Shown here: piece after piece, positions 323 through 7,876 of the stretch
Position numbering within the stretch: position 1 is the first letter of the stretch
How the letters are laid out: each line of letters begins with the position of its first letter
From: a virus
Virus genome (UHGV): UHGV-0300898
Strand: one strand, 5' to 3'
Length of the DNA: 10,754 nt
Program-made: the position numbers and the translations under genes
Notes under the pieces: model-generated
Told to the model about the DNA's origin: nothing
The model's database searches: none
Seen by the model: the letters and a program-made list of their open reading frames with translations, nothing else

Positions 323-450
323 GGGTGACCCAAGCTAAATTTTAATGATGTTACATATCTTTAGTTTAAACTGTATTATTTCCATACGTACTCCTTTAAA
401 GCCAACTGACTGTCTCCCTTTAATAATATCTATCCAAAAAATAATAGAAA

Positions 451-506: not shown

Positions 507-2801
507 TTACTTACCAGCAGCAGCTTTGCCTTCGCCAGCAACGTTACCTGCTACACCACCTTCGGTTTGTTTCTGACCGTTCTGTTCAACAGAAACATTG
601 TAAGCCAGTTTTTCTTCAACCAGTTTGGTGATGCCTTTAACCCAGATCAGACCAGTGATCGGGCAGTGGCAGATGTGCGCGTTACGCGGCTGTACGGCCA
701 GCTCTTTAGAGGTAGAGCCGTTACGCTGAATGTTGATGTTAGTAACCATGATCGGAGACCAGAAGTGGTTACCCCAGTTCAGCACGTTGTAGGAACCATC
801 GTCCGCAGTCGGAACTTTCAGGAACCATTGCAGACGACGAGTCCAGGAACCGTCAGCTGCGTTGTAGATACGCCAGCGGTCATCGTTGGTGGTGATCACT
901 TCGTATTCGTAGCGATCGCCCAGCAGACGTTGGTCGCCCTGTACCAGCAGCAGCATGGATGCAGTCGGTTCGTCGGTTGCAATAACAACCTTCGGCAGAA
1001 TGTCCGGATCGGCAGTGTACAGACGCAGCGCAGGAATGAAGCGAGATTCCTGGATAGCCTGAGTTACCTGATTACCGATACGCTGTACCAGGCCCTGACG
1101 AGCGTTGATCAGTGCATCTTTGGTATCCAGGGACTGTACAACTTCATCAACGTTGTAGTCAGACTCTTTGAACCACGGAGCAACCCAGTGACGGCCCAGA
1201 CCACGAATGGCCGGTTTGTCCCACGGAGTGATCATGCTTGCAGCAGCGTTACGTACCGCTTCGGTGTAAGACAGCGTCTGAGTGATAGCCAGCTGTTCGT
1301 TACGGATGTTAACTGCGGAAATCAGGTCGTCCAGACGTTCGGTATCGTCGTATTCAACACCAACCGGAGACTTGGTCAGAATCGGAGAACCGTATTGCAG
1401 TTTGTAGTTTTCTTGTTCCCAGATTGGGTCAAGCAGCAGACCCTGGGTACGACGGTTTTCGTTGGTACGAGTACCATCGAAGCGCCAGCCCATCAGTTCG
1501 AGCTTCAGACCTTCCAGAACAACTTTGCCGGTACCAGATTTGGTATCAACCTTGTTACCGGTAGCGTCGTACAGACCTTCGATTTCCAGTTTGTGACCCG
1601 CGATGTCAACTTTACCACCAAACTGACCGGTAGTGAACAGAGACATGTTGATGGTGATCACATAACGCAGGGTGTAGGAGTTCTGTTCCAGTGTTTTCAG
1701 AGCCGGAATAGCTGCACCAGTCCAGTCGGTAGTTTTCGCGTTCAGAGAGAATGCGGTACGACGGAATTGCAGTACCAGCTCACGGCCATCGCCTTCAGCA
1801 GGACGCTGGAAGGTTGCGAACTGCATGTCACGAACGTGCAGTTTGATGAATTTACCTGCTTTCGCTTCTTCGGTCGGTTTACGTACAGAAATCAGCAGGC
1901 TGCCCAGAGCACAACCCGGTGCGATTTCATCAGTTTCGTCGTAACCTTCCTGAACGATACCCGGATGCGCAGACAGCTGGAACAGGTTCAGAGTGTCTTT
2001 AGCAAAGCTCAGGTAGTTAGTCGGGTACGGAGGTACACGGCCCAGACGAACAGATTCGTTCGGTACCAGATCTTCGCTTACGAAGTATTCAGCGTTTTCA
2101 CCGGTTTCCATTACGTAAGGAACGATGTTGATCGCTTCGTCCTGGAGAACGGTGTGGTCGGTCAGCGCGTTGTGCAGCGGACGACGATGATCTTCAACAA
2201 CGTCTTTGCTCAGCAGTGCGTTCATTACACCGCGAGAAACGGTGGTCACTTTGGTACGTACGGTAATACCAACATCGTTGGTGTCAACAGTGATGGTCGG
2301 GAACAGAGTCTCAGCGAAACGAGACTGGGTTTCCAGAGCACGTACGTTCAGCGTCCAGGTCAGACCCAGGTTTTTGTCGTAGTCTTTGTTGGTGTAGTAT
2401 TCCTGAGCGACAACCATACGCTCTTTGCCCCAGTCGCCGTTACCAGCTTGGGAACCAGGAATCGCAACGTCCAGGTTAAAACGGCTATGGAATTCTGGTT
2501 TAGCGTATTCTTGCGCTACTTTTTCTTGCAGGTCCATACCGTGACCAGCAGCACCCAGAATCATTGCAGAAGCAACTTCCGCAGCGTGGGACATTTTCTT
2601 ACCGCCAGCAAACGCGTTTGCGTAGTGCTGTGCAGCGTCGTCACGCAGGGTACCAAAAACTTTCGTGTTGCTACGTACAGATTCACCAGCAACGATGGTG
2701 TTCCACATTTCGCCAGCACTGTTGTTACTAATGACGCTTTGTACCAGCGAGTTACCAGCTTGTACGAGTTTCTCCAGATTAGAGATTCGGGTATCTTTCA
2801 T
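507..2801 (-). CDS. major virion structural protein, probably major capsid protein of a jumbo-type phage (764 aa); tail sheath is the alternative
   Basis: Longest ORF in the window. Codon usage is strongly biased toward high-expression codons (CGT, GGT, CTG, AAC, ACC, GAA), so strongly that the antisense strand carries an uninterrupted 752-aa artefactual ORF. SD TAAGGT lies 9 nt upstream of the ATG and a strong terminator follows the stop. Size matches the ~750-aa capsid proteins of phiKZ-like phages as I recall them. No homology search was possible. Confidence 0.85.
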   Translation of the reverse strand: MKDTRISNLEKLVQAGNSLVQSVISNNSAGEMWNTIVAGESVRSNTKVFGTLRDDAAQHYANAFAGGKKMSHAAEVASAMILGAAGHGMDLQEKVAQEYAKPEFHSRFNLDVAIPGSQAGNGDWGKERMVVAQEYYTNKDYDKNLGLTWTLNVRALETQSRFAETLFPTITVDTNDVGITVRTKVTTVSRGVMNALLSKDVVEDHRRPLHNALTDHTVLQDEAINIVPYVMETGENAEYFVSEDLVPNESVRLGRVPPYPTNYLSFAKDTLNLFQLSAHPGIVQEGYDETDEIAPGCALGSLLISVRKPTEEAKAGKFIKLHVRDMQFATFQRPAEGDGRELVLQFRRTAFSLNAKTTDWTGAAIPALKTLEQNSYTLRYVITINMSLFTTGQFGGKVDIAGHKLEIEGLYDATGNKVDTKSGTGKVVLEGLKLELMGWRFDGTRTNENRRTQGLLLDPIWEQENYKLQYGSPILTKSPVGVEYDDTERLDDLISAVNIRNEQLAITQTLSYTEAVRNAAASMITPWDKPAIRGLGRHWVAPWFKESDYNVDEVVQSLDTKDALINARQGLVQRIGNQVTQAIQESRFIPALRLYTADPDILPKVVIATDEPTASMLLLVQGDQRLLGDRYEYEVITTNDDRWRIYNAADGSWTRRLQWFLKVPTADDGSYNVLNWGNHFWSPIMVTNINIQRNGSTSKELAVQPRNAHICHCPITGLIWVKGITKLVEEKLAYNVSVEQNGQKQTEGGVAGNVAGEGKAAAGK

Positions 2802-3351: not shown

Positions 3352-4914
3352 ATGAATAACAAAATGATGTTGATAACCGCCTTAGCCACATTATACGCTG
3401 AAAGTCTTCTGACCGATCCTGAAAAGGACCACGACATCATAAGAAAAGTGCTGTTAGAGGCTAAGCTTCCTGATTACGCAGAGGAAGGTGACGAACGTGC
3501 CGCCCTCGTCGAAATCAAGGATATCATCACATCCATCATAGACGGCGGTATGCCTTACGACCACACAAACGTCATGAAACGTTTGAAACTGGCCACTACG
3601 CAAATACGTCCTCTATACGATACGATTACCAAATTCCTGGAAGATGATATTCCAGAAGAACCAGAAGCACGCATCGAGCATCTTAATCGCCAAGTAGCAC
3701 AATACTACTTTCAGTTACGTCAAGCTATTCAAGGCGTACAACTGAAACAAAAATTGGGTCGTACGTTAGGCGCACTGAACGGTACCGAAACGCGCGTTGA
3801 TTTACAAACGGCGCTCAACGACCTTAAGGATACCTTATCCACGTTCAGTGAACGCTCTCATAATAAGATTCCTTCTCTGGTAGGGGAATTGATTACTGAC
3901 AATAAAGCACCTTTCGTGCACGTATTCGACTCTATCAGTAAGAAAGCGGCAGGGAACGGGTTGCGTACAGGTTGGAAAGCAATTAACCAGATGCTCGGTT
4001 GTAACAAAGGGATCACCGAAGAACTCTGGCTGATGCCTGCTCTCCCCTTTAACTGTAAGTCATTATTCAGTTTATTGCTCTCTATTAGCATTCCCGTTTT
4101 CAACACCCCAGAAAAGGTGATGGCGAATGTTAAGGGTGATCTACAACCGGTTATTCTAGATTTAAGTTTAGAAAACGAATTGGATGTTAACTTGGCTTAC
4201 GCGTATCAGGCACTATACGGACACTTTGAAGGTACAGCCCCGGTAATGGTTGCGCCAGAAACCGCAACTGACGAAGAAAAAGCGTCACATAATGCACAAA
4301 TGTCAGACTACCTCTGTAGTAAGATGCGGGCGAACGGTTGGGAGTATATTTTCCAAAAACACACAAACTCCGATTTTAAAATTCACTATTTAAACGATTT
4401 GATTTTAGATTTAAAACGTCGAGGTTATCATGTAGCTGGAATACGCGGAGACTATTTCGGTACTATCAGCAAAGCAGGGCACGGTAACGGCATTGCGGGT
4501 AGCGACATTAAAGAAATTTATCGTATCGCGCGAAACATCCAAGTGGTACGTAATCGTGGTTTCCTGTTAGCACCACACCAAATCTCACCAGAAGGCAAAA
4601 AATTAAAAGCACTCGACCCAGCAAGTTTCTGTAAGAACTTACCTGGTCGTGGTCTTCACGACAACTGCTCTAGCTTAGACAACGAAGCTGACGGTGAGAT
4701 GTATTTTAACAAACGTGTCGTCAACGGTCACAGCTATTTAGAAGTACAACGCGGTAAACACCGTACCATTATTGATACCAAAGAAGCTTATCATTATACT
4801 GTAATACCTTTCCGCGATGTTGGCATTTTGCCATGGGATTGTGATAAAGAAGAAACTGTAACAGCCTCGTCGATTAACGTATTTACCGGCGGCATGGGTG
4901 ACGAACTCTTTTGA
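3352..4914 (+). CDS. hypothetical protein (520 aa); helical, charged N-terminal region; no recognisable catalytic motif
   Basis: Complete ORF. SD AAGGA at 3340-3344 with a 7-nt spacer to the ATG. TGA stop is followed immediately by a GC hairpin at 4919-4936. The only plus-strand gene in the window. Confidence 0.8.
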   Translation: MNNKMMLITALATLYAESLLTDPEKDHDIIRKVLLEAKLPDYAEEGDERAALVEIKDIITSIIDGGMPYDHTNVMKRLKLATTQIRPLYDTITKFLEDDIPEEPEARIEHLNRQVAQYYFQLRQAIQGVQLKQKLGRTLGALNGTETRVDLQTALNDLKDTLSTFSERSHNKIPSLVGELITDNKAPFVHVFDSISKKAAGNGLRTGWKAINQMLGCNKGITEELWLMPALPFNCKSLFSLLLSISIPVFNTPEKVMANVKGDLQPVILDLSLENELDVNLAYAYQALYGHFEGTAPVMVAPETATDEEKASHNAQMSDYLCSKMRANGWEYIFQKHTNSDFKIHYLNDLILDLKRRGYHVAGIRGDYFGTISKAGHGNGIAGSDIKEIYRIARNIQVVRNRGFLLAPHQISPEGKKLKALDPASFCKNLPGRGLHDNCSSLDNEADGEMYFNKRVVNGHSYLEVQRGKHRTIIDTKEAYHYTVIPFRDVGILPWDCDKEETVTASSINVFTGGMGDELF

Positions 4915-4918
4915 GTCT

Positions 4919-4936
4919 GGGGAGCTTCGGCTCCCC
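4919..4936 (+). terminator. stable hairpin GGGGAGC-UUCG-GCUCCCC directly after the 520-aa gene; no U-tract, so either a 3' stability element or a non-canonical terminator
   Basis: Perfect 7-bp GC stem with a UUCG tetraloop, 4 nt after the stop codon. Followed by CTATAACCCC rather than a T-run. Confidence 0.4.
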
Positions 4937-5019
4937 CTATAACCCCTTATGCGTCTCGAAAAACAAAAAAAAACAGAAGGCTATTAATTATGAACGGAAA
5001 ACAACTACCGAACTAAGTA

Positions 5020-5046
5020 GGGGGTGGTAGCAACACCCCCTTTATT
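5020..5046 (+). terminator. intrinsic terminator, GGGGGTG-loop-CACCCCC plus TTTATT (first member of a three-copy terminator family)
   Basis: 7-bp stem 5020-5026/5034-5040, 7-nt loop, then TTTATT at 5041-5046. Preceded by an 8-codon mini-ORF (4990..5016) that has an SD. Confidence 0.55.
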
Positions 5047-5159
5047 AGTTAGTAACTTATCTCCTTAGAGGTGGTTGCTGAACATTATGGTTGTTAACCG
5101 TTTTCATTACCTTTCGTAATGTTGTAAAAACGTCAACAACTTTATGTGTTGATGCCGTA

Positions 5160-5189
5160 CAGCAGAGACTGGCGGAACAGTCTCTGCTG
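5160..5189 (+). other. perfect 12-bp hairpin (CAGCAGAGACTG / CAGTCTCTGCTG, 6-nt loop) abutting repeat copy 1
   Basis: Exact reverse-complement arms at 5160-5171 and 5178-5189. The position-equivalent hairpin before copy 2 (5561-5586) has an unrelated sequence but the same architecture. Confidence 0.7.
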
Positions 5190-5232
5190 CTTTAACTTCT
5201 CTTTGGAAAAGTTAAAGCTATGAAAAGGGGTG
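5187..5232 (+). repeat. 46-nt conserved element, copy 1 (CTGCTTTAACTTCTCTTTGGAAAAGTTAAAGCTATGAAAAGGGGTG); contains a 9-bp inverted repeat CTTTAACTT-N10-AAGTTAAAG
   Basis: 45/46 identical to 5586..5631, the single mismatch being 5224 A versus 5623 T. The copies are offset by exactly 399 bp. The internal inverted repeat is 5190-5198/5209-5217. Confidence 0.85.
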
Positions 5233-5250
5233 GTGGTGCACCCCTTTTTA
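5227..5250 (+). terminator. intrinsic terminator GGGGTG-GTGGTG-CACCCC plus TTTTTA (family copy 2)
   Basis: 6-bp GC stem, 6-nt loop, then a T5 run at 5245-5249. It begins inside the conserved element. Confidence 0.55.
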
Positions 5251-5291
5251 TTATACTTACGACCACCATCTCGGCAGGTTACTGTACGAGG

Positions 5292-5326
5292 AGGAGAGGC
5301 GCTGACACGCCTCTCCTTTATTTGTT
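5292..5326 (+). terminator. intrinsic terminator, stem GGAGAGGCG/CGCCTCTCC with loop CTGACA, followed by TTTATTTGTT
   Basis: Perfect 9-bp stem 5293-5301/5308-5316, extendable with flanking A-T and G-U pairs, followed by a T-rich tract. Confidence 0.6.
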
Positions 5327-5498
5327 AGTAGTGTTCACTCCTCTTTTCAGTGAATATCCGCGTGAAACGGTTGGTAGACGGTTTTAACCGTTTATCCATG
5401 CCGAGCTGACTATACTTGTAGATACGTTGCTGTAAATTGGTCTTTGCTGCACTCTGCTCTGCAAGCATTTTGTCGGTAAAGTAGTAACCATTGTTCAT
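5325..5498 (-). CDS. small basic hypothetical protein, 57 aa (MNNGYYFTDKMLAEQSAAKTNLQQRIYKYSQLGMDKRLKPSTNRFTRIFTEKRSEHY)
   Basis: Below the 60-aa cutoff of the ORF track and found by hand translation. ATG at 5498..5496 is preceded by SD GAGGG with a 6-nt spacer; TAA stop at 5327..5325. It lies between the two copies of the 46-nt element. Confidence 0.35.
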   Translation of the reverse strand: MNNGYYFTDKMLAEQSAAKTNLQQRIYKYSQLGMDKRLKPSTNRFTRIFTEKRSEHY

Positions 5499-5531
5499 GG
5501 TAAGCCCTCTTTGTAGGGTGATTAAAGAAAT

Positions 5532-5551
5532 CCACTACGGAAACGTAGTGG
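5532..5551 (+). other. perfect 8-bp hairpin CCACTACG-GAAA-CGTAGTGG with a GNRA-type tetraloop
   Basis: Exact inverted repeat with a GAAA loop, about 35 nt upstream (minus sense) of the 57-aa ORF start. Confidence 0.6.
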
Positions 5552-5560
5552 TGTTGTAAA

Positions 5561-5586
5561 GGGTACGCTGTAGCACCAGCGTACCC
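5561..5586 (+). other. perfect 10-bp hairpin (GGGTACGCTG / CAGCGTACCC, loop TAGCAC) abutting repeat copy 2
   Basis: Same position relative to the conserved element as the 5160-5189 hairpin, with a completely different stem sequence. Confidence 0.7.
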
Positions 5587-5631
5587 TGCTTTAACTTCTC
5601 TTTGGAAAAGTTAAAGCTATGATAAGGGGTG
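5586..5631 (+). repeat. 46-nt conserved element, copy 2
   Basis: See copy 1; 45/46 identity at a 399-bp offset. Confidence 0.85.
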
Positions 5632-5656
5632 TGACAGCACCCCTTTATTTTATTTA
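5626..5656 (+). terminator. intrinsic terminator GGGGTG-TGACAG-CACCCC plus TTTATTTTATTT (family copy 3)
   Basis: Same stem as 5227-5244 with a different loop, followed by a long T-rich tract. Confidence 0.6.
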
Positions 5657-5749
5657 GTAGTTACTTCTCCTTTCGGTGAAGATTTGTACTCGTCGATTAT
5701 TAGAAGGTTTAAACCTTTTATTTAATCCAAGCTGTTGAATTTGCGAAAA

Positions 5750-5799
5750 TAAATAAAGTGTACCCCTAATCCTTTTCGGGATTAGGGGTTGCTTTTATT
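5750..5799. terminator. bidirectional intrinsic terminator (10-bp perfect stem CCCCTAATCC/GGATTAGGGG)
   Basis: Stem 5763-5772/5779-5788 with loop TTTTCG. A T-rich tract follows on the plus strand (5789-5799) and an A-rich tract precedes it (5750-5760), which is a U-tract on the minus strand. Sits directly after the stop of the 271-aa minus-strand gene. Confidence 0.75.
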
Positions 5800-6610
5800 T
5801 AGTCGCTACGTATTGAACATGGCCACATTCTTTACATTCCACGTTGGCTTTCGGGATTGTCAGGCCGGTTAAAGGAACACGGATTTGATACTGTGCTCCA
5901 CATTCTTCACAAACAAAATCGTATTCTGGATAGACACGACCTTCTAATTTCTCTTCTTTCCTTAGTGTGCCTGCTAAGAACAGCATCGCACCTAACGCTT
6001 CATTAATCTGCTGTTCCCATTCTCCGTCTAACGGGTAAGCGAACGCACGAGTCAACGTTTCCACCATCTCTGGAGTATTACTTACATAAACGTGTTTCAG
6101 TTCAAACTCAACACGTTGCAAGCCGAACAATACGCGCGCCGTCACGGTAACATTATCCAACGTTTGTGCAAACACAACGGGATTATCGTCACCATACATT
6201 GCGAATAACGCAGCACGTTCGTATTCGATATCACTCCACTCGATTAGTTCTACAGATTTAATCGCTTCCGCAATCTCAGCATTACCGAACGTTTCGTGTT
6301 CCAATAATCCGACGATAACTTCATTCAACGATTTCAATTGCTGTAATCGAATCGTAGGATCGGTATTCACGATAAGTAAACGATGCATTCTGGATTTCAA
6401 CCAGTTAATCGTTCCTTCTACACCGCCCCCAAACGAGCAGATGCTTATCACTTCAGGTTCACGAAGGATAAGAGTTGATTTTCCTGCTGCCGTACTCAAG
6501 TAGAGTTTAAAAGACTTATCGTTAGACTCTGCAACGATGGCAATGTCTTCAGTTGGAACGAAGTTTTCATTGCTCAGCCCACGCGGAAAATAATCTTTAA
6601 TAGTAATCAT
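5795..6610 (-). CDS. hypothetical protein with a C-terminal CxxC-N22-CxxC zinc-ribbon (271 aa)
   Basis: Complete ORF. SD GGAG is 8 nt upstream of the ATG at 6610. C-terminus reads ...VCEECGAQYQIRVPLTGLTIPKANVECKECGHVQY. Terminator immediately downstream. Confidence 0.75.
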   Translation of the reverse strand: MITIKDYFPRGLSNENFVPTEDIAIVAESNDKSFKLYLSTAAGKSTLILREPEVISICSFGGGVEGTINWLKSRMHRLLIVNTDPTIRLQQLKSLNEVIVGLLEHETFGNAEIAEAIKSVELIEWSDIEYERAALFAMYGDDNPVVFAQTLDNVTVTARVLFGLQRVEFELKHVYVSNTPEMVETLTRAFAYPLDGEWEQQINEALGAMLFLAGTLRKEEKLEGRVYPEYDFVCEECGAQYQIRVPLTGLTIPKANVECKECGHVQYVATK

Positions 6611-6625
6611 CTTTTATGCTCCAAT

Positions 6626-6659
6626 TAATAAAAAAATTAAGGGCACCCGAAGGTGCCTT
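6626..6659 (-). terminator. intrinsic terminator for the small lipoprotein-like gene (stem with UUCG tetraloop plus UAAUUUUUUUAUU in minus-strand RNA)
   Basis: Stem 6640-6647/6652-6659 (8 bp including one G-U pair) with plus-strand loop CGAA. The plus-strand A-run 6631-6636 gives a U7 tract on the minus strand, 5 nt after the TAA stop at 6665. Confidence 0.75.
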
Positions 6660-6664
6660 ATACA

Positions 6665-6808
6665 TTAACCACGACCAGTGCACTGTGCAACGGAATTACC
6701 GTTGTCGATGCAAGTGTCGTAGCCTTTGTCGATATCCAGGTACAGGCAACCCAGAACAACAGCGATAACAACAGCGAAGATAGCTTTTTTGTGTTTTACA
6801 GAAATCAT
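6665..6808 (-). CDS. small putative lipoprotein or membrane protein, 47 aa (MISVKHKKAIFAVVIAVVLGC|LYLDIDKGYDTCIDNGNSVAQCTGRG)
   Basis: Below the ORF-track cutoff. ATG at 6808..6806 is preceded by the perfect SD AGGAG with a 7-nt spacer. N-terminus has a basic region, then a hydrophobic stretch, then VVLGC, which fits the lipobox pattern. Leu at +2. Dedicated terminator downstream. Confidence 0.55.
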   Translation of the reverse strand: MISVKHKKAIFAVVIAVVLGCLYLDIDKGYDTCIDNGNSVAQCTGRG

Positions 6809-6902
6809 GATATAACTCCTAATTAGGTATTCGATAAATGAGTATTACGTAAACTCTCACCTAGGTAATATATATCTGAAATCTTTTTGAATCCATATAC
6901 CC

Positions 6903-6932
6903 TCTAGAACGCTCTAAAACGCATTCTAACGC
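6903..6932. repeat. three tandem 10-nt repeats (TCTAGAACGC / TCTAAAACGC / ATTCTAACGC) in the upstream region of the small lipoprotein gene
   Basis: Period of 10 bp, one helical turn. The first two units are 9/10 identical and the third shares CTAACGC. Located 95-125 nt upstream (minus sense) of the ATG at 6808. Confidence 0.6.
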
Positions 6933-7000: not shown

Positions 7001-7046
7001 AATAAAAGGTATTCCCGTTACCCACAGAGGTAACGGGAAGTTTTTA
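7001..7046. terminator. bidirectional intrinsic terminator (11-bp stem TTCCCGTTACC/GGTAACGGGAA) ending the minus-strand operon
   Basis: Stem 7012-7022/7029-7039 with loop CACAGA. The plus-strand T5 run at 7041-7045 overlaps the operon stop codon, and the A-rich tract at 7001-7008 gives UUUUAUU on the minus strand. Confidence 0.75.
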
Positions 7047-7844
7047 CAGACCTTGCATCTTATCCATTACAGCGATTTCAGGATCGCTAATGCCCGTCTT
7101 CGAAGAAATCATAAAGCGCTTATCGCTAATAGCTTCTACGGATTCGCGAATAAACAATGACTTTTCTTCCGCAACAGGAAGAATAGAATCGTTATCCTGC
7201 GGACCCACAAGCTGACAACTGAAAGGTACATAGCTGTTGAAGGTCACATAAGGACCTAACTGCAAGACCGGATACACTTCATTGAAGTTATTTGATGTGC
7301 CACTGTCTGTAGAAATAACAGAATAGCGCACCACCGCACGCACAGCCGTGGTATATTCAGGATCGCGGGCTTCACCCACTACGGTAAAACGAAACGCATT
7401 GAAGTCATAGTCTTCCGACTCACTAAAGTGTGAAGGGAGAATACGTTCAATATACTGAGGATAGGTTTCCTGTTGCCCTGGGGTAACCGCTGCAGCCAAT
7501 TTCTGAGCATAGAAGTAACAATAAGCAAAGCCGTATTGCGCTTCTAAAGCACCAGACACCACAGCAGTTGTGATCGCGTGCAGGAACAACAAGTGACCTA
7601 ACGTCCCTTTTTCTTCGATTGGTAATAAGCGACAATTCTGTACACCGTCTACGGTATAGATAACAGAAATCGTTTTGTCAGCGCTGGACGCCATGATGTA
7701 ATCCAACTGGCGTTGTTCGCCACCAGGAATAACATTAAGGCAACGTTCTAACAACTTCGACGGTTTCGAAAAATTCTCTTCTTCGAATTTGTCGATTTGA
7801 ATTAACGTTTGACCAGACATTCTGAAAGTAAGTAGATTACTCAT
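7044..7844 (-). CDS. hypothetical protein (266 aa, starting MSNLLTFRMSGQ...)
   Basis: The ORF track starts at a TTG (7850). I prefer the ATG two codons downstream (7844..7842), which has SD AAAGGA with a 7-nt spacer. Last gene of the operon; terminator hairpin directly after the TAA. Confidence 0.75.
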   Translation of the reverse strand: MSNLLTFRMSGQTLIQIDKFEEENFSKPSKLLERCLNVIPGGEQRQLDYIMASSADKTISVIYTVDGVQNCRLLPIEEKGTLGHLLFLHAITTAVVSGALEAQYGFAYCYFYAQKLAAAVTPGQQETYPQYIERILPSHFSESEDYDFNAFRFTVVGEARDPEYTTAVRAVVRYSVISTDSGTSNNFNEVYPVLQLGPYVTFNSYVPFSCQLVGPQDNDSILPVAEEKSLFIRESVEAISDKRFMISSKTGISDPEIAVMDKMQGL

Positions 7845-7876
7845 TAACAAATCCTTTAGGTTACGGACAACATAAT

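What the first reader, a model, noticed from the sequence alone, without database searches (positions are those of the whole stretch)
6626..6872. Unannotated 47-aa lipoprotein-like gene forming its own transcription unit
The ORF at 6665..6808 (-) has the strongest SD in the window (AGGAG, 7-nt spacer). Its N-terminus looks like a lipoprotein signal peptide (MISVKHKK, then AIFAVVIAVV, then lipobox VLGC), leaving a 27-residue mature peptide with two more cysteines and Leu at +2, which would predict outer-membrane sorting in an enterobacterial host. It is bracketed by a canonical terminator downstream (6626-6659) and a ~200-bp upstream region ending at another terminator (7001-7046), so it appears to be monocistronic. 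Small phage lipoproteins are known as o-spanins (Rz1-like) and as receptor-blocking or superinfection-exclusion factors (phage T5 Llp). No spanin partner or lysis genes are visible nearby, which favours the exclusion or host-modification possibility.
Basis: partly seen in the sequence, partly recalled or inferred. Interest (0 to 1): 0.65.

Follow-up and report, generated by a model that had tools for sequence, protein, structure and literature searches.

The report
Small early jumbo-phage membrane protein
The 47-codon ORF is a real, conserved gene of SPN3US-like giant phages, probably switched on at the very start of infection, but it is more likely a tiny membrane-spanning protein with a disulfide-looped tip in the periplasm than an obligate lipoprotein, and its target is unknown.

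Summary
The ORF at 6665..6808 (-), its AGGAG ribosome site and both flanking terminators are present as described. The window is from an uncultivated SPN3US-like nucleus-forming jumbo phage.

The ORF belongs to PHROG 8574 (function unknown; SPN3US gp66). It is annotated "hypothetical protein" in more than 60 phage genomes, always between the gp65-like gene and the helicase. Synonymous variation over invariant residues shows it is translated.

The gene lies 57 nt downstream of the best copy of a repeated 36-nt promoter motif. That motif has 23 same-strand copies in SPN3US, none in shuffles, and also precedes putative non-virion RNA polymerase genes. By analogy with phiKZ and AR9 it is the virion-RNA-polymerase early promoter. 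Early timing is inferred, not measured.

The "lipobox" cysteine occurs in only 18 of 43 family members and has switched at least 6 times. The invariant features are a 15-22-residue apolar segment and a C-terminal C-x9-C...CTGRG module. AlphaFold gives one continuous helix through Cys21.

The closest architectural precedent is E. coli MgrB: 47 aa, a VLAC motif, predicted lipoprotein, shown uncleaved. There is no homology to it.

No spanin partner or lysis neighbours were found. Function, whether superinfection exclusion or host envelope modulation, remains inferred.

The parts
7012..7039 (-). Terminator-like hairpin (TTCCCGTTACC-TCTG-TGGGTAACGGGAA plus T-rich tail) that ends the upstream gp65-like gene (7044..7850)
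   Evidence: 12 pairs, 6 GC
6908..6932 (-). Three 10-bp-phased direct repeats, GCGTTnnAGA. This cis element is specific to this locus, lies upstream of the promoter, and has unknown function.
   Evidence: 2 overlapping matches, 0.03 expected; conserved at the orthologous position in SPN3US, ChrisDB, pEa9, Caitlin, Huxley, Asesino and phiEaH2; absent from the other promoter copies
6854..6889 (-). Promoter motif CAAAAAGATTTCAGATATATATTACCTAGGTGAGAG (core TATATTAC at 6872-6865). Inferred to be the virion-RNA-polymerase early promoter.
   Evidence: PWM score 50.9 bits, higher than any SPN3US copy. One copy lies upstream of the family gene in all 14 relatives examined. SPN3US has 26 sites of at least 14 bits, 23 on the coding strand, with 0 in shuffles. 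The 45-50-nt stretch is 91-97% identical in other genera, and several of those genomes hold it at 2-3 places.
6816..6820 (-). Shine-Dalgarno AGGAG, 7 nt before the ATG
6665..6808 (-). CDS of 47 aa plus stop; member of PHROG 8574 and orthologue of SPN3US gp66 (ACQ60_gp200)
6737..6784 (-). Codons 9-24, AIFAVVIAVVLGCLYL. This is the apolar segment: a transmembrane anchor or a signal-peptide h-region.
   Evidence: apolar run of 15-22 residues in every member; continuous helix 4-35; KD maximum 2.96
6746..6748 (-). Cys21 codon (TGC), the proposed lipobox +1 cysteine. It is not conserved in the family.
6668..6724 (-). Codons 29-47, G-Y-D-T-C33-I-D-N-G-N-S-V-A-Q-C43-T-G-R-G. This is the near-invariant C-x9-C module, predicted to be periplasmic.
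   Evidence: invariant C33, G37, S39, C43, T44, G45, R46; turn at NGNS, second helix 40-44; synonymous variation
6630..6657 (-). Intrinsic terminator: GGCACC-UUCG-GGUGCC followed by TTAATTTTTTT
   Evidence: Huxley has the equivalent terminator with a different stem sequence and the same UUCG loop (L015 1636-1655)

Best explanation
The ORF is a genuine, conserved gene of SPN3US-like nucleus-forming jumbo phages (PHROG 8574; SPN3US gp66).

Expression. It is transcribed from a perfect-consensus copy of the phage's repeated promoter. That promoter is inferred to be the early promoter used by the injected virion RNA polymerase. In this phage the transcript ends at its own intrinsic terminator.

Product. 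The most likely product is a 47-residue bitopic inner-membrane protein:
- a basic N-terminus (K5, H6, K7, K8) in the cytoplasm;
- one transmembrane helix (about residues 9-24) that includes Cys21;
- a roughly 20-residue C-terminal module exposed at the periplasmic face, where C33 and C43 probably form a disulfide across an NGNS turn.

Likely action. The anchor varies freely in sequence, whereas the C-terminal module is almost invariant across phages of Erwinia, Salmonella and Escherichia. The module is therefore the working part. It most likely binds a conserved periplasm-exposed partner early in infection. My preferred guess is a block to DNA entry by superinfecting relatives, in the manner of T4 Imm or HK97 gp15. 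Modulation of a host inner-membrane protein, in the manner of MgrB, is close behind.

Shown: gene reality, family membership, synteny, promoter and terminator anatomy, and the conservation pattern.
Inferred: early timing, topology, the disulfide and the target.
For: Gene reality and family:
- phrog_8574 match, E 3.4e-23, full length.
- Homologues in 61-63 phage records in conserved synteny.
- Synonymous codon variation over invariant residues.

Promoter:
- The same motif is found once upstream of the gene in all 14 loci examined.
- A genome-wide SPN3US scan gave 26 sites, 23 on the coding strand and 0 in shuffles.
- Sites also precede genes annotated 'RNA polymerase beta subunit' at 29014 and 17704. 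I take these, from memory, to be non-virion RNAP genes.
- The literature reports that conserved AT-rich motifs centred near -10 are the early vRNAP promoters in every RNAP-encoding jumbo phage profiled. It also reports that middle and late promoters cannot be found bioinformatically (PMC7598289; phiKZ has 32 early promoters, PMC8244752).

Topology:
- The apolar run of 15-22 residues spans the site in all members, and the n-region is positive.
- AF2 gives pLDDT 86, a continuous helix 4-35, a turn, and a helix 40-44.
- Cys21 is absent from 25 of 43 members, and the deepest relatives P0032 and P0035-37 keep the TM plus C-x9-C module without it.

Precedent:
- MgrB is 47 aa with a VLAC motif and was predicted to carry a type I or II signal. 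It was shown to be an uncleaved inner-membrane protein, and its two periplasmic cysteines are essential (PMC2789325 section 7; bioRxiv 10.1101/438515).
Against: - No transcriptomic or proteomic timing data for any family member were found.
- SignalP and LipoP could not be run.
- The window variant has the shortest apolar run (16 residues) and Asp at +5. This fits a cleaved type II signal better than most members do.
- It passes PS00013, and UniRef auto-labels the Kwan homologue 'Lipoprotein'.
- Cysteine is concentrated in this one column: 18 there against 1 elsewhere in the apolar segment. It nearly always follows A or G. This could reflect selection for lipidation in some lineages.
- No partner or target has been identified. 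The exclusion role is a guess by analogy.
- Coinfection by related chimalliviruses is documented (PMC12908238), so exclusion is at best incomplete in this group.
Confidence: 0.5

Rival explanations
1. First reader's model. The precursor is a type II (Lgt/LspA) substrate. It is cleaved before Cys21, and the 27-residue mature peptide is triacylated. With Leu at +2 it is sorted by Lol to the inner leaflet of the outer membrane. There it blocks a receptor or otherwise modifies the envelope, in the manner of T5 Llp or Cor.
For: - The n-region is MISVKHKK, the h-region is 12 uncharged residues, and V-L-G-C passes PS00013 plus its rule and a G+LPP-type pattern.
- Of the 18 Cys-bearing members, 17 have A or G at -1 and 16 pass PS00013 plus its rule.
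- UniRef names the Kwan homologue 'Lipoprotein'.
- Cys recurs at exactly this column in several lineages.
- The window variant has a charged residue soon after the site.
Against: - Cys is absent in 25 of 43 members, including SPN3US, Asesino and Huxley, and in all deep relatives.
- The strict lipobox [LVI][ASTVI][GAS]C is met by none.
- Hydrophobic residues follow the Cys (C-LYL, C-SYITL), unlike typical mature lipoprotein N-termini (my own knowledge).
- Outer-membrane sorting in some members and inner-membrane anchoring in others would place an invariant module on opposite membranes.
- MgrB carries the same motif and is not processed (PMC2789325).
- The gene is not adjacent to a receptor-binding protein gene, and no Llp, Cor or other family hit was found.
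Confidence: 0.25
2. Lysis component: an o-spanin or u-spanin, a single-TMD holin or antiholin, or a colicin-lysis-protein-like or entericidin-like small lytic lipoprotein.
For: - Its size and shape resemble Rz1, bacteriocin release proteins and entericidins (my own knowledge).
- My literature searches found no description of holin or spanin genes for SPN3US-like phages.
- In Asesino, phiEaH2 and pEa29 an 81-aa three-TMD protein with a basic tail, which is holin-like in shape, sits immediately upstream.
Against: - The adjacent ORFs are soluble and none resembles an i-spanin.
- The mature part contains no proline.
- The SPN3US endolysin lies 70 kb away.
- The gene is driven by the early-type promoter.
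- Most members are not lipoproteins.
- There is no Pfam hit to Lysis_col, Rz1 or entericidin even at E of 10 or less.
- The 81-aa protein is absent from SPN3US and from this window.
Confidence: 0.1
3. Secreted peptide. The N-terminus is a type I signal peptide cut at the same site (AFA|V, AFG|S, ALS|V in Cys-less members). This would release a soluble disulfide-looped peptide of about 27 residues into the periplasm.
For: Small residues at -1 and -3 are common across the family. The same ambiguity was raised for MgrB (PMC2789325).
Against: - The apolar run of 18-20 residues continues past the site, with no polar c-region or helix breaker.
- AF2 gives a continuous helix.
- Several members have V, T, I, L or F at -1.
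Confidence: 0.1

Closest known systems
PHROG 8574 / SPN3US gp66 (ACQ60_gp200, YP_009153360) family of hypothetical proteins
   Same: Full-length sequence family: 43-56% identity to most relatives and 98-100% to metagenomic copies. It has the same length, the same C-x9-C...CTGRG end, the same position between the gp65-like gene and the helicase, and the same promoter upstream.
   Different: In this phage the gene stands alone between promoter and terminator, whereas most relatives have it in an operon. This variant carries the Cys21 'lipobox', which SPN3US lacks.
E. coli MgrB (PF13998), a 47-aa inhibitor of the PhoQ sensor kinase
   Same: Same length, N-in/C-out single helix, a [V/A]L[A/G]C motif inside the helix that predictors read as a type II signal, and two conserved periplasmic cysteines 9-10 residues apart (PMC2789325; bioRxiv 10.1101/438515).
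   Different: No detectable homology: hhalign probability 23% over the TM only and no PF13998 hit. MgrB is host-encoded, and here the target is unknown.
Small envelope exclusion proteins of lytic and temperate phages (T4 Imm and Sp, HK97 gp15, T5 Llp, Cor)
   Same: Small, early or constitutively expressed, membrane- or lipid-anchored with a periplasm-facing part. Llp needs a disulfide (my own knowledge).
   Different: There is no sequence or profile similarity. The gene is not next to a receptor-binding protein gene as llp is. No phenotype is known.
phiKZ/AR9-type early (virion RNA polymerase) promoters
   Same: A conserved AT-rich core near -10 with a T-rich stretch upstream, tens of copies per genome on the coding strand, also upstream of putative non-virion RNAP genes, usually preceded by a terminator (PMC7598289; PMC8244752).
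   Different: The sequence is specific to the SPN3US clade (TTTCAGATAKATATTAYCTnnGTGAG). No TSS or timing has been mapped for this clade in what I could find.

Membership tests
PHROG 8574 (SPN3US gp66-like) | Full-length profile match | tested here: met
   E 3.4e-23, residues 1-47 on profile positions 1-47 of 47
PHROG 8574 (SPN3US gp66-like) | Conserved genomic position and upstream promoter | tested here: met
Bacterial lipoprotein (Lgt/LspA substrate) | Positively charged n-region plus an uncharged h-region of 7-22 residues | tested here: met
   K5, K7, K8, then A9-G20
Bacterial lipoprotein (Lgt/LspA substrate) | Lipobox ending in Cys | tested here: inconclusive
   VLGC passes the permissive PS00013 pattern and rule but fails [LVI][ASTVI][GAS]C. 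LipoP and SignalP were not available.
Bacterial lipoprotein (Lgt/LspA substrate) | The +1 Cys conserved among orthologues | tested here: not met
   18 of 43 members have it; at least 6 switches; outgroups lack it
Bacterial lipoprotein (Lgt/LspA substrate) | Lipid modification and globomycin-sensitive cleavage | not testable with these tools
   Needs experiment
o-spanin (Rz1-like) | Adjacent, overlapping or embedded i-spanin gene | tested here: not met
   The neighbouring ORFs here and in relatives are soluble or unrelated; a terminator follows the gene
o-spanin (Rz1-like) | Location in a lysis cassette and late expression | tested here: not met
   The SPN3US endolysin is at 135.4 kb and gp66 at 65.5 kb; the promoter is of the early type (timing inferred)
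o-spanin (Rz1-like) | Lipoprotein with a proline-rich periplasmic domain | tested here: not met
   No proline in residues 22-47; Cys is not conserved
T5 Llp / Cor receptor-blocking lipoproteins | Sequence or profile similarity | tested here: not met
   Only phrog_8574 was hit; no Pfam, NCBIfam or PDB hit of note
T5 Llp / Cor receptor-blocking lipoproteins | Adjacency to the receptor-binding protein gene | tested here: not met
   Neighbours are a gp65-like 268-aa protein and a 271-aa protein of phrog_10180
MgrB (PF13998) | Profile match to the periplasmic region | tested here: not met
   PF13998 hits MgrB itself at 2e-18 but no family member at E of 10 or less; hhalign gives 23% over the TM only
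Colicin lysis protein (PF02402) / entericidin | Profile match | tested here: not met
   No hit at E of 10 or less for 14 members
Jumbo-phage early (vRNAP) promoter | Conserved AT-rich motif repeated on the coding strand upstream of operons, including putative nvRNAP genes | tested here: met
   with the annotation
Jumbo-phage early (vRNAP) promoter | Mapped TSS, and transcription early and independent of protein synthesis | not testable with these tools
   No transcriptome of an SPN3US-like phage was found

The most novel reading that the evidence does not exclude
The family is an early periplasm-facing effector whose anchor toggles between a transmembrane helix (inner membrane) and a lipid anchor (outer membrane) in different lineages. 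The invariant disulfide-stapled C-x9-C hairpin binds a component that all these phages share, for example the DNA-ejection apparatus of a superinfecting relative. This would make it the first superinfection-exclusion or entry-control factor described for nucleus-forming jumbo phages. Its promoter would be under dedicated control through the locus-specific GCGTT x3 repeat array.
Probability: 0.12. Interest if true: 0.6.

Novelty: new member of a known kind. Interest (0 to 1): 0.3.

Why it matters
- Host-takeover and envelope functions of nucleus-forming jumbo phages are almost unknown. The two reviews I searched (PMC13282480, PMC12908238) name no holin, spanin or exclusion genes for them.
- A 47-residue protein that sits behind the best early-type promoter, keeps an invariant periplasmic tip across phages of several enterobacterial genera, and is absent from bacterial genomes is a cheap, well-defined target. 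Suitable tests are expression, knock-down and pull-down experiments in the genetically tractable SPN3US system.
- The case is also a caution for annotation. Pattern-based 'lipoprotein' calls on very small proteins, such as the UniRef label on the Kwan homologue, can be contradicted by family-level conservation, as happened with MgrB.

Tried and rejected
- **Entericidin, colicin-lysis-protein or MgrB homology.** These were suggested by size and a GN-S motif. No Pfam or NCBIfam hit was found at E of 10 or less, and hhalign against MgrB aligns only the TM.
- **Solved-structure and fold searches.** PDB profile hits were noise at E 0.03 or worse. BFVD Foldseek returned only likely family members (two unnamed 45-aa viral proteins) plus noise.
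- **Spanin pair.** Neighbouring ORFs in five relatives were translated and none resembles an i-spanin. The 81-aa multi-TMD neighbour of Asesino, EaH2 and pEa29 has no counterpart in SPN3US or the window.
- **Prophage or bacterial 'moron' origin.** The Salmonella 'TPA' protein P0010 lies on a phage contig with the same synteny. A scan of 185,579 species genomes gave only an out-of-frame chance match.
- **Known RNA in the region.** Nothing approached an Rfam gathering score.
- **5' leader hairpin in the window transcript.** It is not better than shuffles (z 0.63), although paralogous SPN3US leaders have clearer hairpins.
- **Sigma-70 promoter for the gene.** None was found.
- **Literature on SPN3US gp66, spanins or exclusion in this clade.** Nothing relevant was found.
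- **Context of the repeat-containing protein P0033.** The contig is too short to be informative.

Full report
**What is in the sequence.**
- On the minus strand, 6808..6665 encodes MISVKHKKAIFAVVIAVVLGCLYLDIDKGYDTCIDNGNSVAQCTGRG.
- AGGAG (6820-6816) lies 7 nt before the ATG.
- Eight bases after the stop comes GGCACC-TTCG-GGTGCC (6657-6642), followed one base later by TTAATTTTTTT. The terminator scan reports this site.
- The scan also reports the hairpin at 7039-7012, which follows the upstream 268-aa gene. It found 12 terminator-like sites in 3 kb, against 2.9 in shuffles.
- One detail is overstated: the SD of the 439-aa gene (GGAGGA, -9.3 kcal/mol) is stronger than this one (-6.8).

**Where the window comes from.**
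- The major capsid protein (507..2801, -) and a DnaB-like helicase (3352..4914, +) are about 80% identical at DNA level to Salmonella phage SPN3US and to Erwinia phages Asesino and phiEaH2.
- Proteins identical to the 47-aa product occur on IMG/VR contigs of 151-225 kb. A 98% identical one occurs on a Logan contig.
- The window therefore belongs to an uncultivated SPN3US-like jumbo phage. SPN3US and Asesino are experimentally nucleus-forming Chimalliviridae (PMC13282480).

**It is a real gene of a known but uncharacterised family.**
- The product matches phrog_8574 (unknown function) over its whole length, E 3.4e-23.
- tblastn finds it in 61-63 GenBank phages of the genera Seoulvirus, Machinavirus, Erskinevirus and Wellingtonvirus. 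It is almost always annotated 'hypothetical protein'.
- The SPN3US orthologue is ACQ60_gp200, which is gp66 in the original numbering.
- It always lies between the gp64/gp65-like genes and the helicase. This holds even in a distant metagenomic relative and on a phage contig inside a Salmonella assembly.
- Invariant residues are encoded by different synonymous codons in different phages: GGT/GGC/GGA/GGG, TCC/TCT/TCA, ACT/ACA/ACC, CGT/CGC. The protein sequence is therefore under selection.
- A scan of one genome from each of 185,579 bacterial and archaeal species found only an out-of-frame chance match. The family is phage-only.

**The transcription unit.**
- A megablast of the region gave an unexpected result. 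A 45-50-nt stretch at 6893-6843 is 91-97% identical in phages whose flanking DNA does not align, and several of those genomes hold it at 2-3 places.
- The stretch is TTTCAGATATATATTACCTAGGTGAGAG. Every relative has exactly one high-scoring copy, 80-1350 nt upstream of the family gene on the same strand.
- A weight matrix built from SPN3US copies finds 26 sites of at least 14 bits in that genome, 23 of them on the coding strand. Five shuffled genomes gave none.
- The sites sit in intergenic gaps, usually just after a terminator hairpin. Some precede genes annotated 'RNA polymerase beta subunit' (28957 before 29014; 15602 before 15768/17704), which I take from memory to be non-virion RNAP genes.
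- The window copy scores 50.9 bits, higher than any SPN3US copy. A second, weaker copy lies at 447 (-).
- The literature states that in every RNAP-encoding jumbo phage a conserved AT-rich motif centred near -10 marks early operons. It proved to be the virion-RNAP early promoter wherever transcripts were profiled, and middle and late promoters cannot be found bioinformatically (PMC7598289). phiKZ has 32 such promoters with a T-rich part upstream (PMC8244752).
- I therefore infer that the 47-aa gene is an immediate-early gene. No transcript data exist for this clade in what I could search.
- In this phage and in Huxley the gene is followed directly by a terminator. The stems differ in sequence and the UUCG loop is the same.
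- In SPN3US, Asesino, ChrisDB and others the gene is the first to third gene of a 3-5-gene operon of small soluble proteins.
- 'Monocistronic' is therefore true here but is not a family trait.

**Is it a lipoprotein?**
- I collected 43 distinct members, 40 of them within the core family.
- Invariant positions are C33, G37, S39, C43, T44, G45 and R46. Y30, N36 and G47 are nearly invariant. Together these give a C-x9-C module ending ...CTGRG-COOH.
- The column holding Cys21 is the opposite of conserved. It has C in 18 members, V in 10, S in 5, A in 4, T in 2, L in 2, and I and W in one each.
- Members of one genus differ: in Machinavirus, ChrisDB has C and Huxley has S; in Wellingtonvirus, Kwan has C and pEa11 has S.
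- A rough NJ tree needs at least 6 changes, and the deepest relatives lack the Cys.
- Of the 18 Cys-bearers, 16 pass the permissive PS00013 pattern and rule. None passes [LVI][ASTVI][GAS]C.
- In every member the apolar run is 15-22 residues long and continues 3-6 residues beyond the site.
- AlphaFold2 with the family alignment (pLDDT 86) gives one helix from residue 4 to 35, a turn at NGNS, and a short helix 40-44.
- The basic N-terminus and acidic C-terminal part fit an N-in/C-out orientation.
- If Cys-bearers were lipidated, their +2 residues (S, A, L, G) would send them to the outer membrane in enterobacteria, while Cys-less members stayed in the inner membrane. That is an awkward split for an invariant module.
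- A direct precedent exists in E. coli MgrB. It is also 47 aa and has VLAC inside its hydrophobic stretch. [quoted passage not shown] Its two periplasmic cysteines C28 and C39 are essential (bioRxiv 10.1101/438515).
- There is no homology between the families; the parallel is architectural only.
- Several points count for lipidation of this variant. It has the shortest apolar run (16 residues) and Asp at +5. Cys is concentrated at this one column and nearly always follows A or G. UniRef auto-labels the Kwan protein 'Lipoprotein'.
- I put lipidation of the window variant at about 0.25-0.35, and lipidation as a family trait near zero.

**What it probably does.**
- No annotated family, solved structure or fold match gives a lead.
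- A lysis role is unlikely. No i-spanin-like neighbour exists, the mature part has no proline, the SPN3US endolysin is 70 kb away, and the promoter is of the early type.
- The anchor sequence drifts freely while the periplasmic tip is nearly frozen across phages of Erwinia, Salmonella and Escherichia. The tip is therefore the interaction surface, and its partner is highly conserved.
- That partner could be a phage component common to the clade, such as the ejection machinery of a superinfecting relative. This would be exclusion in the manner of T4 Imm, Sp or HK97 gp15.
- Alternatively it could be a conserved enterobacterial inner-membrane or periplasmic protein, giving modulation in the manner of MgrB.
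- I favour exclusion slightly, but this step is inference only.
- The module seems to be an autonomous unit. A 381-aa metagenomic membrane protein carries four tandem AYNxCIGNGNSASQC copies.

**Verdict.** The gene is a new member of an already catalogued, functionally unknown phage family. Its interest is moderate to low as it stands, though it is a tidy experimental target.

Noticed in passing
window 6908-6932 (-): Three 10-bp-phased direct repeats, GCGTTAGAAT GCGTTTTAGA GCGTTCTAGA(GGG), lie 36-60 bp upstream of the promoter core. The pattern GCGTTN5GCGTT occurs twice here against 0.03 expected. It is conserved at the orthologous spot in SPN3US, ChrisDB, pEa9, Caitlin, Huxley, Asesino and phiEaH2. 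It is absent from the other promoter copies and occurs at only 2 places in the whole SPN3US genome. It may be a binding array for a regulator of this one promoter.
   Followed up: partly
SPN3US (L043-L047) 56282, 65401, 94227, 113974, 165675, 223265; window 6835-6827 (-): The strongest promoter copies come as a cassette: promoter, then a 5' hairpin whose stems differ between copies but stay complementary (GAGAGTT/AACTCTC, GAGCGTTA/TAACGCTT, GATAGA/TCTATC). An AATCGACTAT box follows, 15-25 nt before the start codon. ATCGACTAT occurs 8 times on the + strand, once on the - strand, and about once by chance. The window leader has only a degenerate ATCGAATAC, and its hairpin is not significant.
   Followed up: partly
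window 412-447 (-): A second, weaker copy of the promoter motif (33 bits, TTTTTGGATAGATATTATTAAAGGGAG) lies after the capsid gene and its terminator. It has an AAGGAG ribosome site and an ORF running off the window end. It matches the SPN3US sites at 72474/72672.
   Followed up: no
L013 1175-1420 (Asesino gp83); L016 233-478 and 1205-1450; L011 1189-1434: An 81-aa protein with about three hydrophobic segments and a KAKFKK tail sits immediately upstream of the family gene in Erskinevirus phages and in pEa_SNUABM_29. It is present in two copies in phiEaH2. It is absent from SPN3US and from this window.
   Followed up: partly
P0033 (metagenome contig L054 448-1593): A 381-aa predicted membrane protein contains four tandem copies of a motif like the family's periplasmic module (AYNxCIGNGNSASQC). 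This suggests the C-x9-C unit folds independently.
   Followed up: partly
window 5795-6610 (-): The downstream 271-aa protein (weak phrog_10180 match) ends in two CxxC pairs (CEECG...CKECG), which is zinc-ribbon-like. The window lacks the gp67-gp69-like small genes that separate it from the family gene in SPN3US.
   Followed up: no
window 4915-5795, both strands: The helicase-proximal intergenic stretch holds an unusual density of strong hairpins with T-tails on both strands (5019, 5160, 5290, 5560, 5624, 5762). It also holds only small unconserved ORFs, such as the 57-aa ORF at 5325-5498.
   Followed up: no
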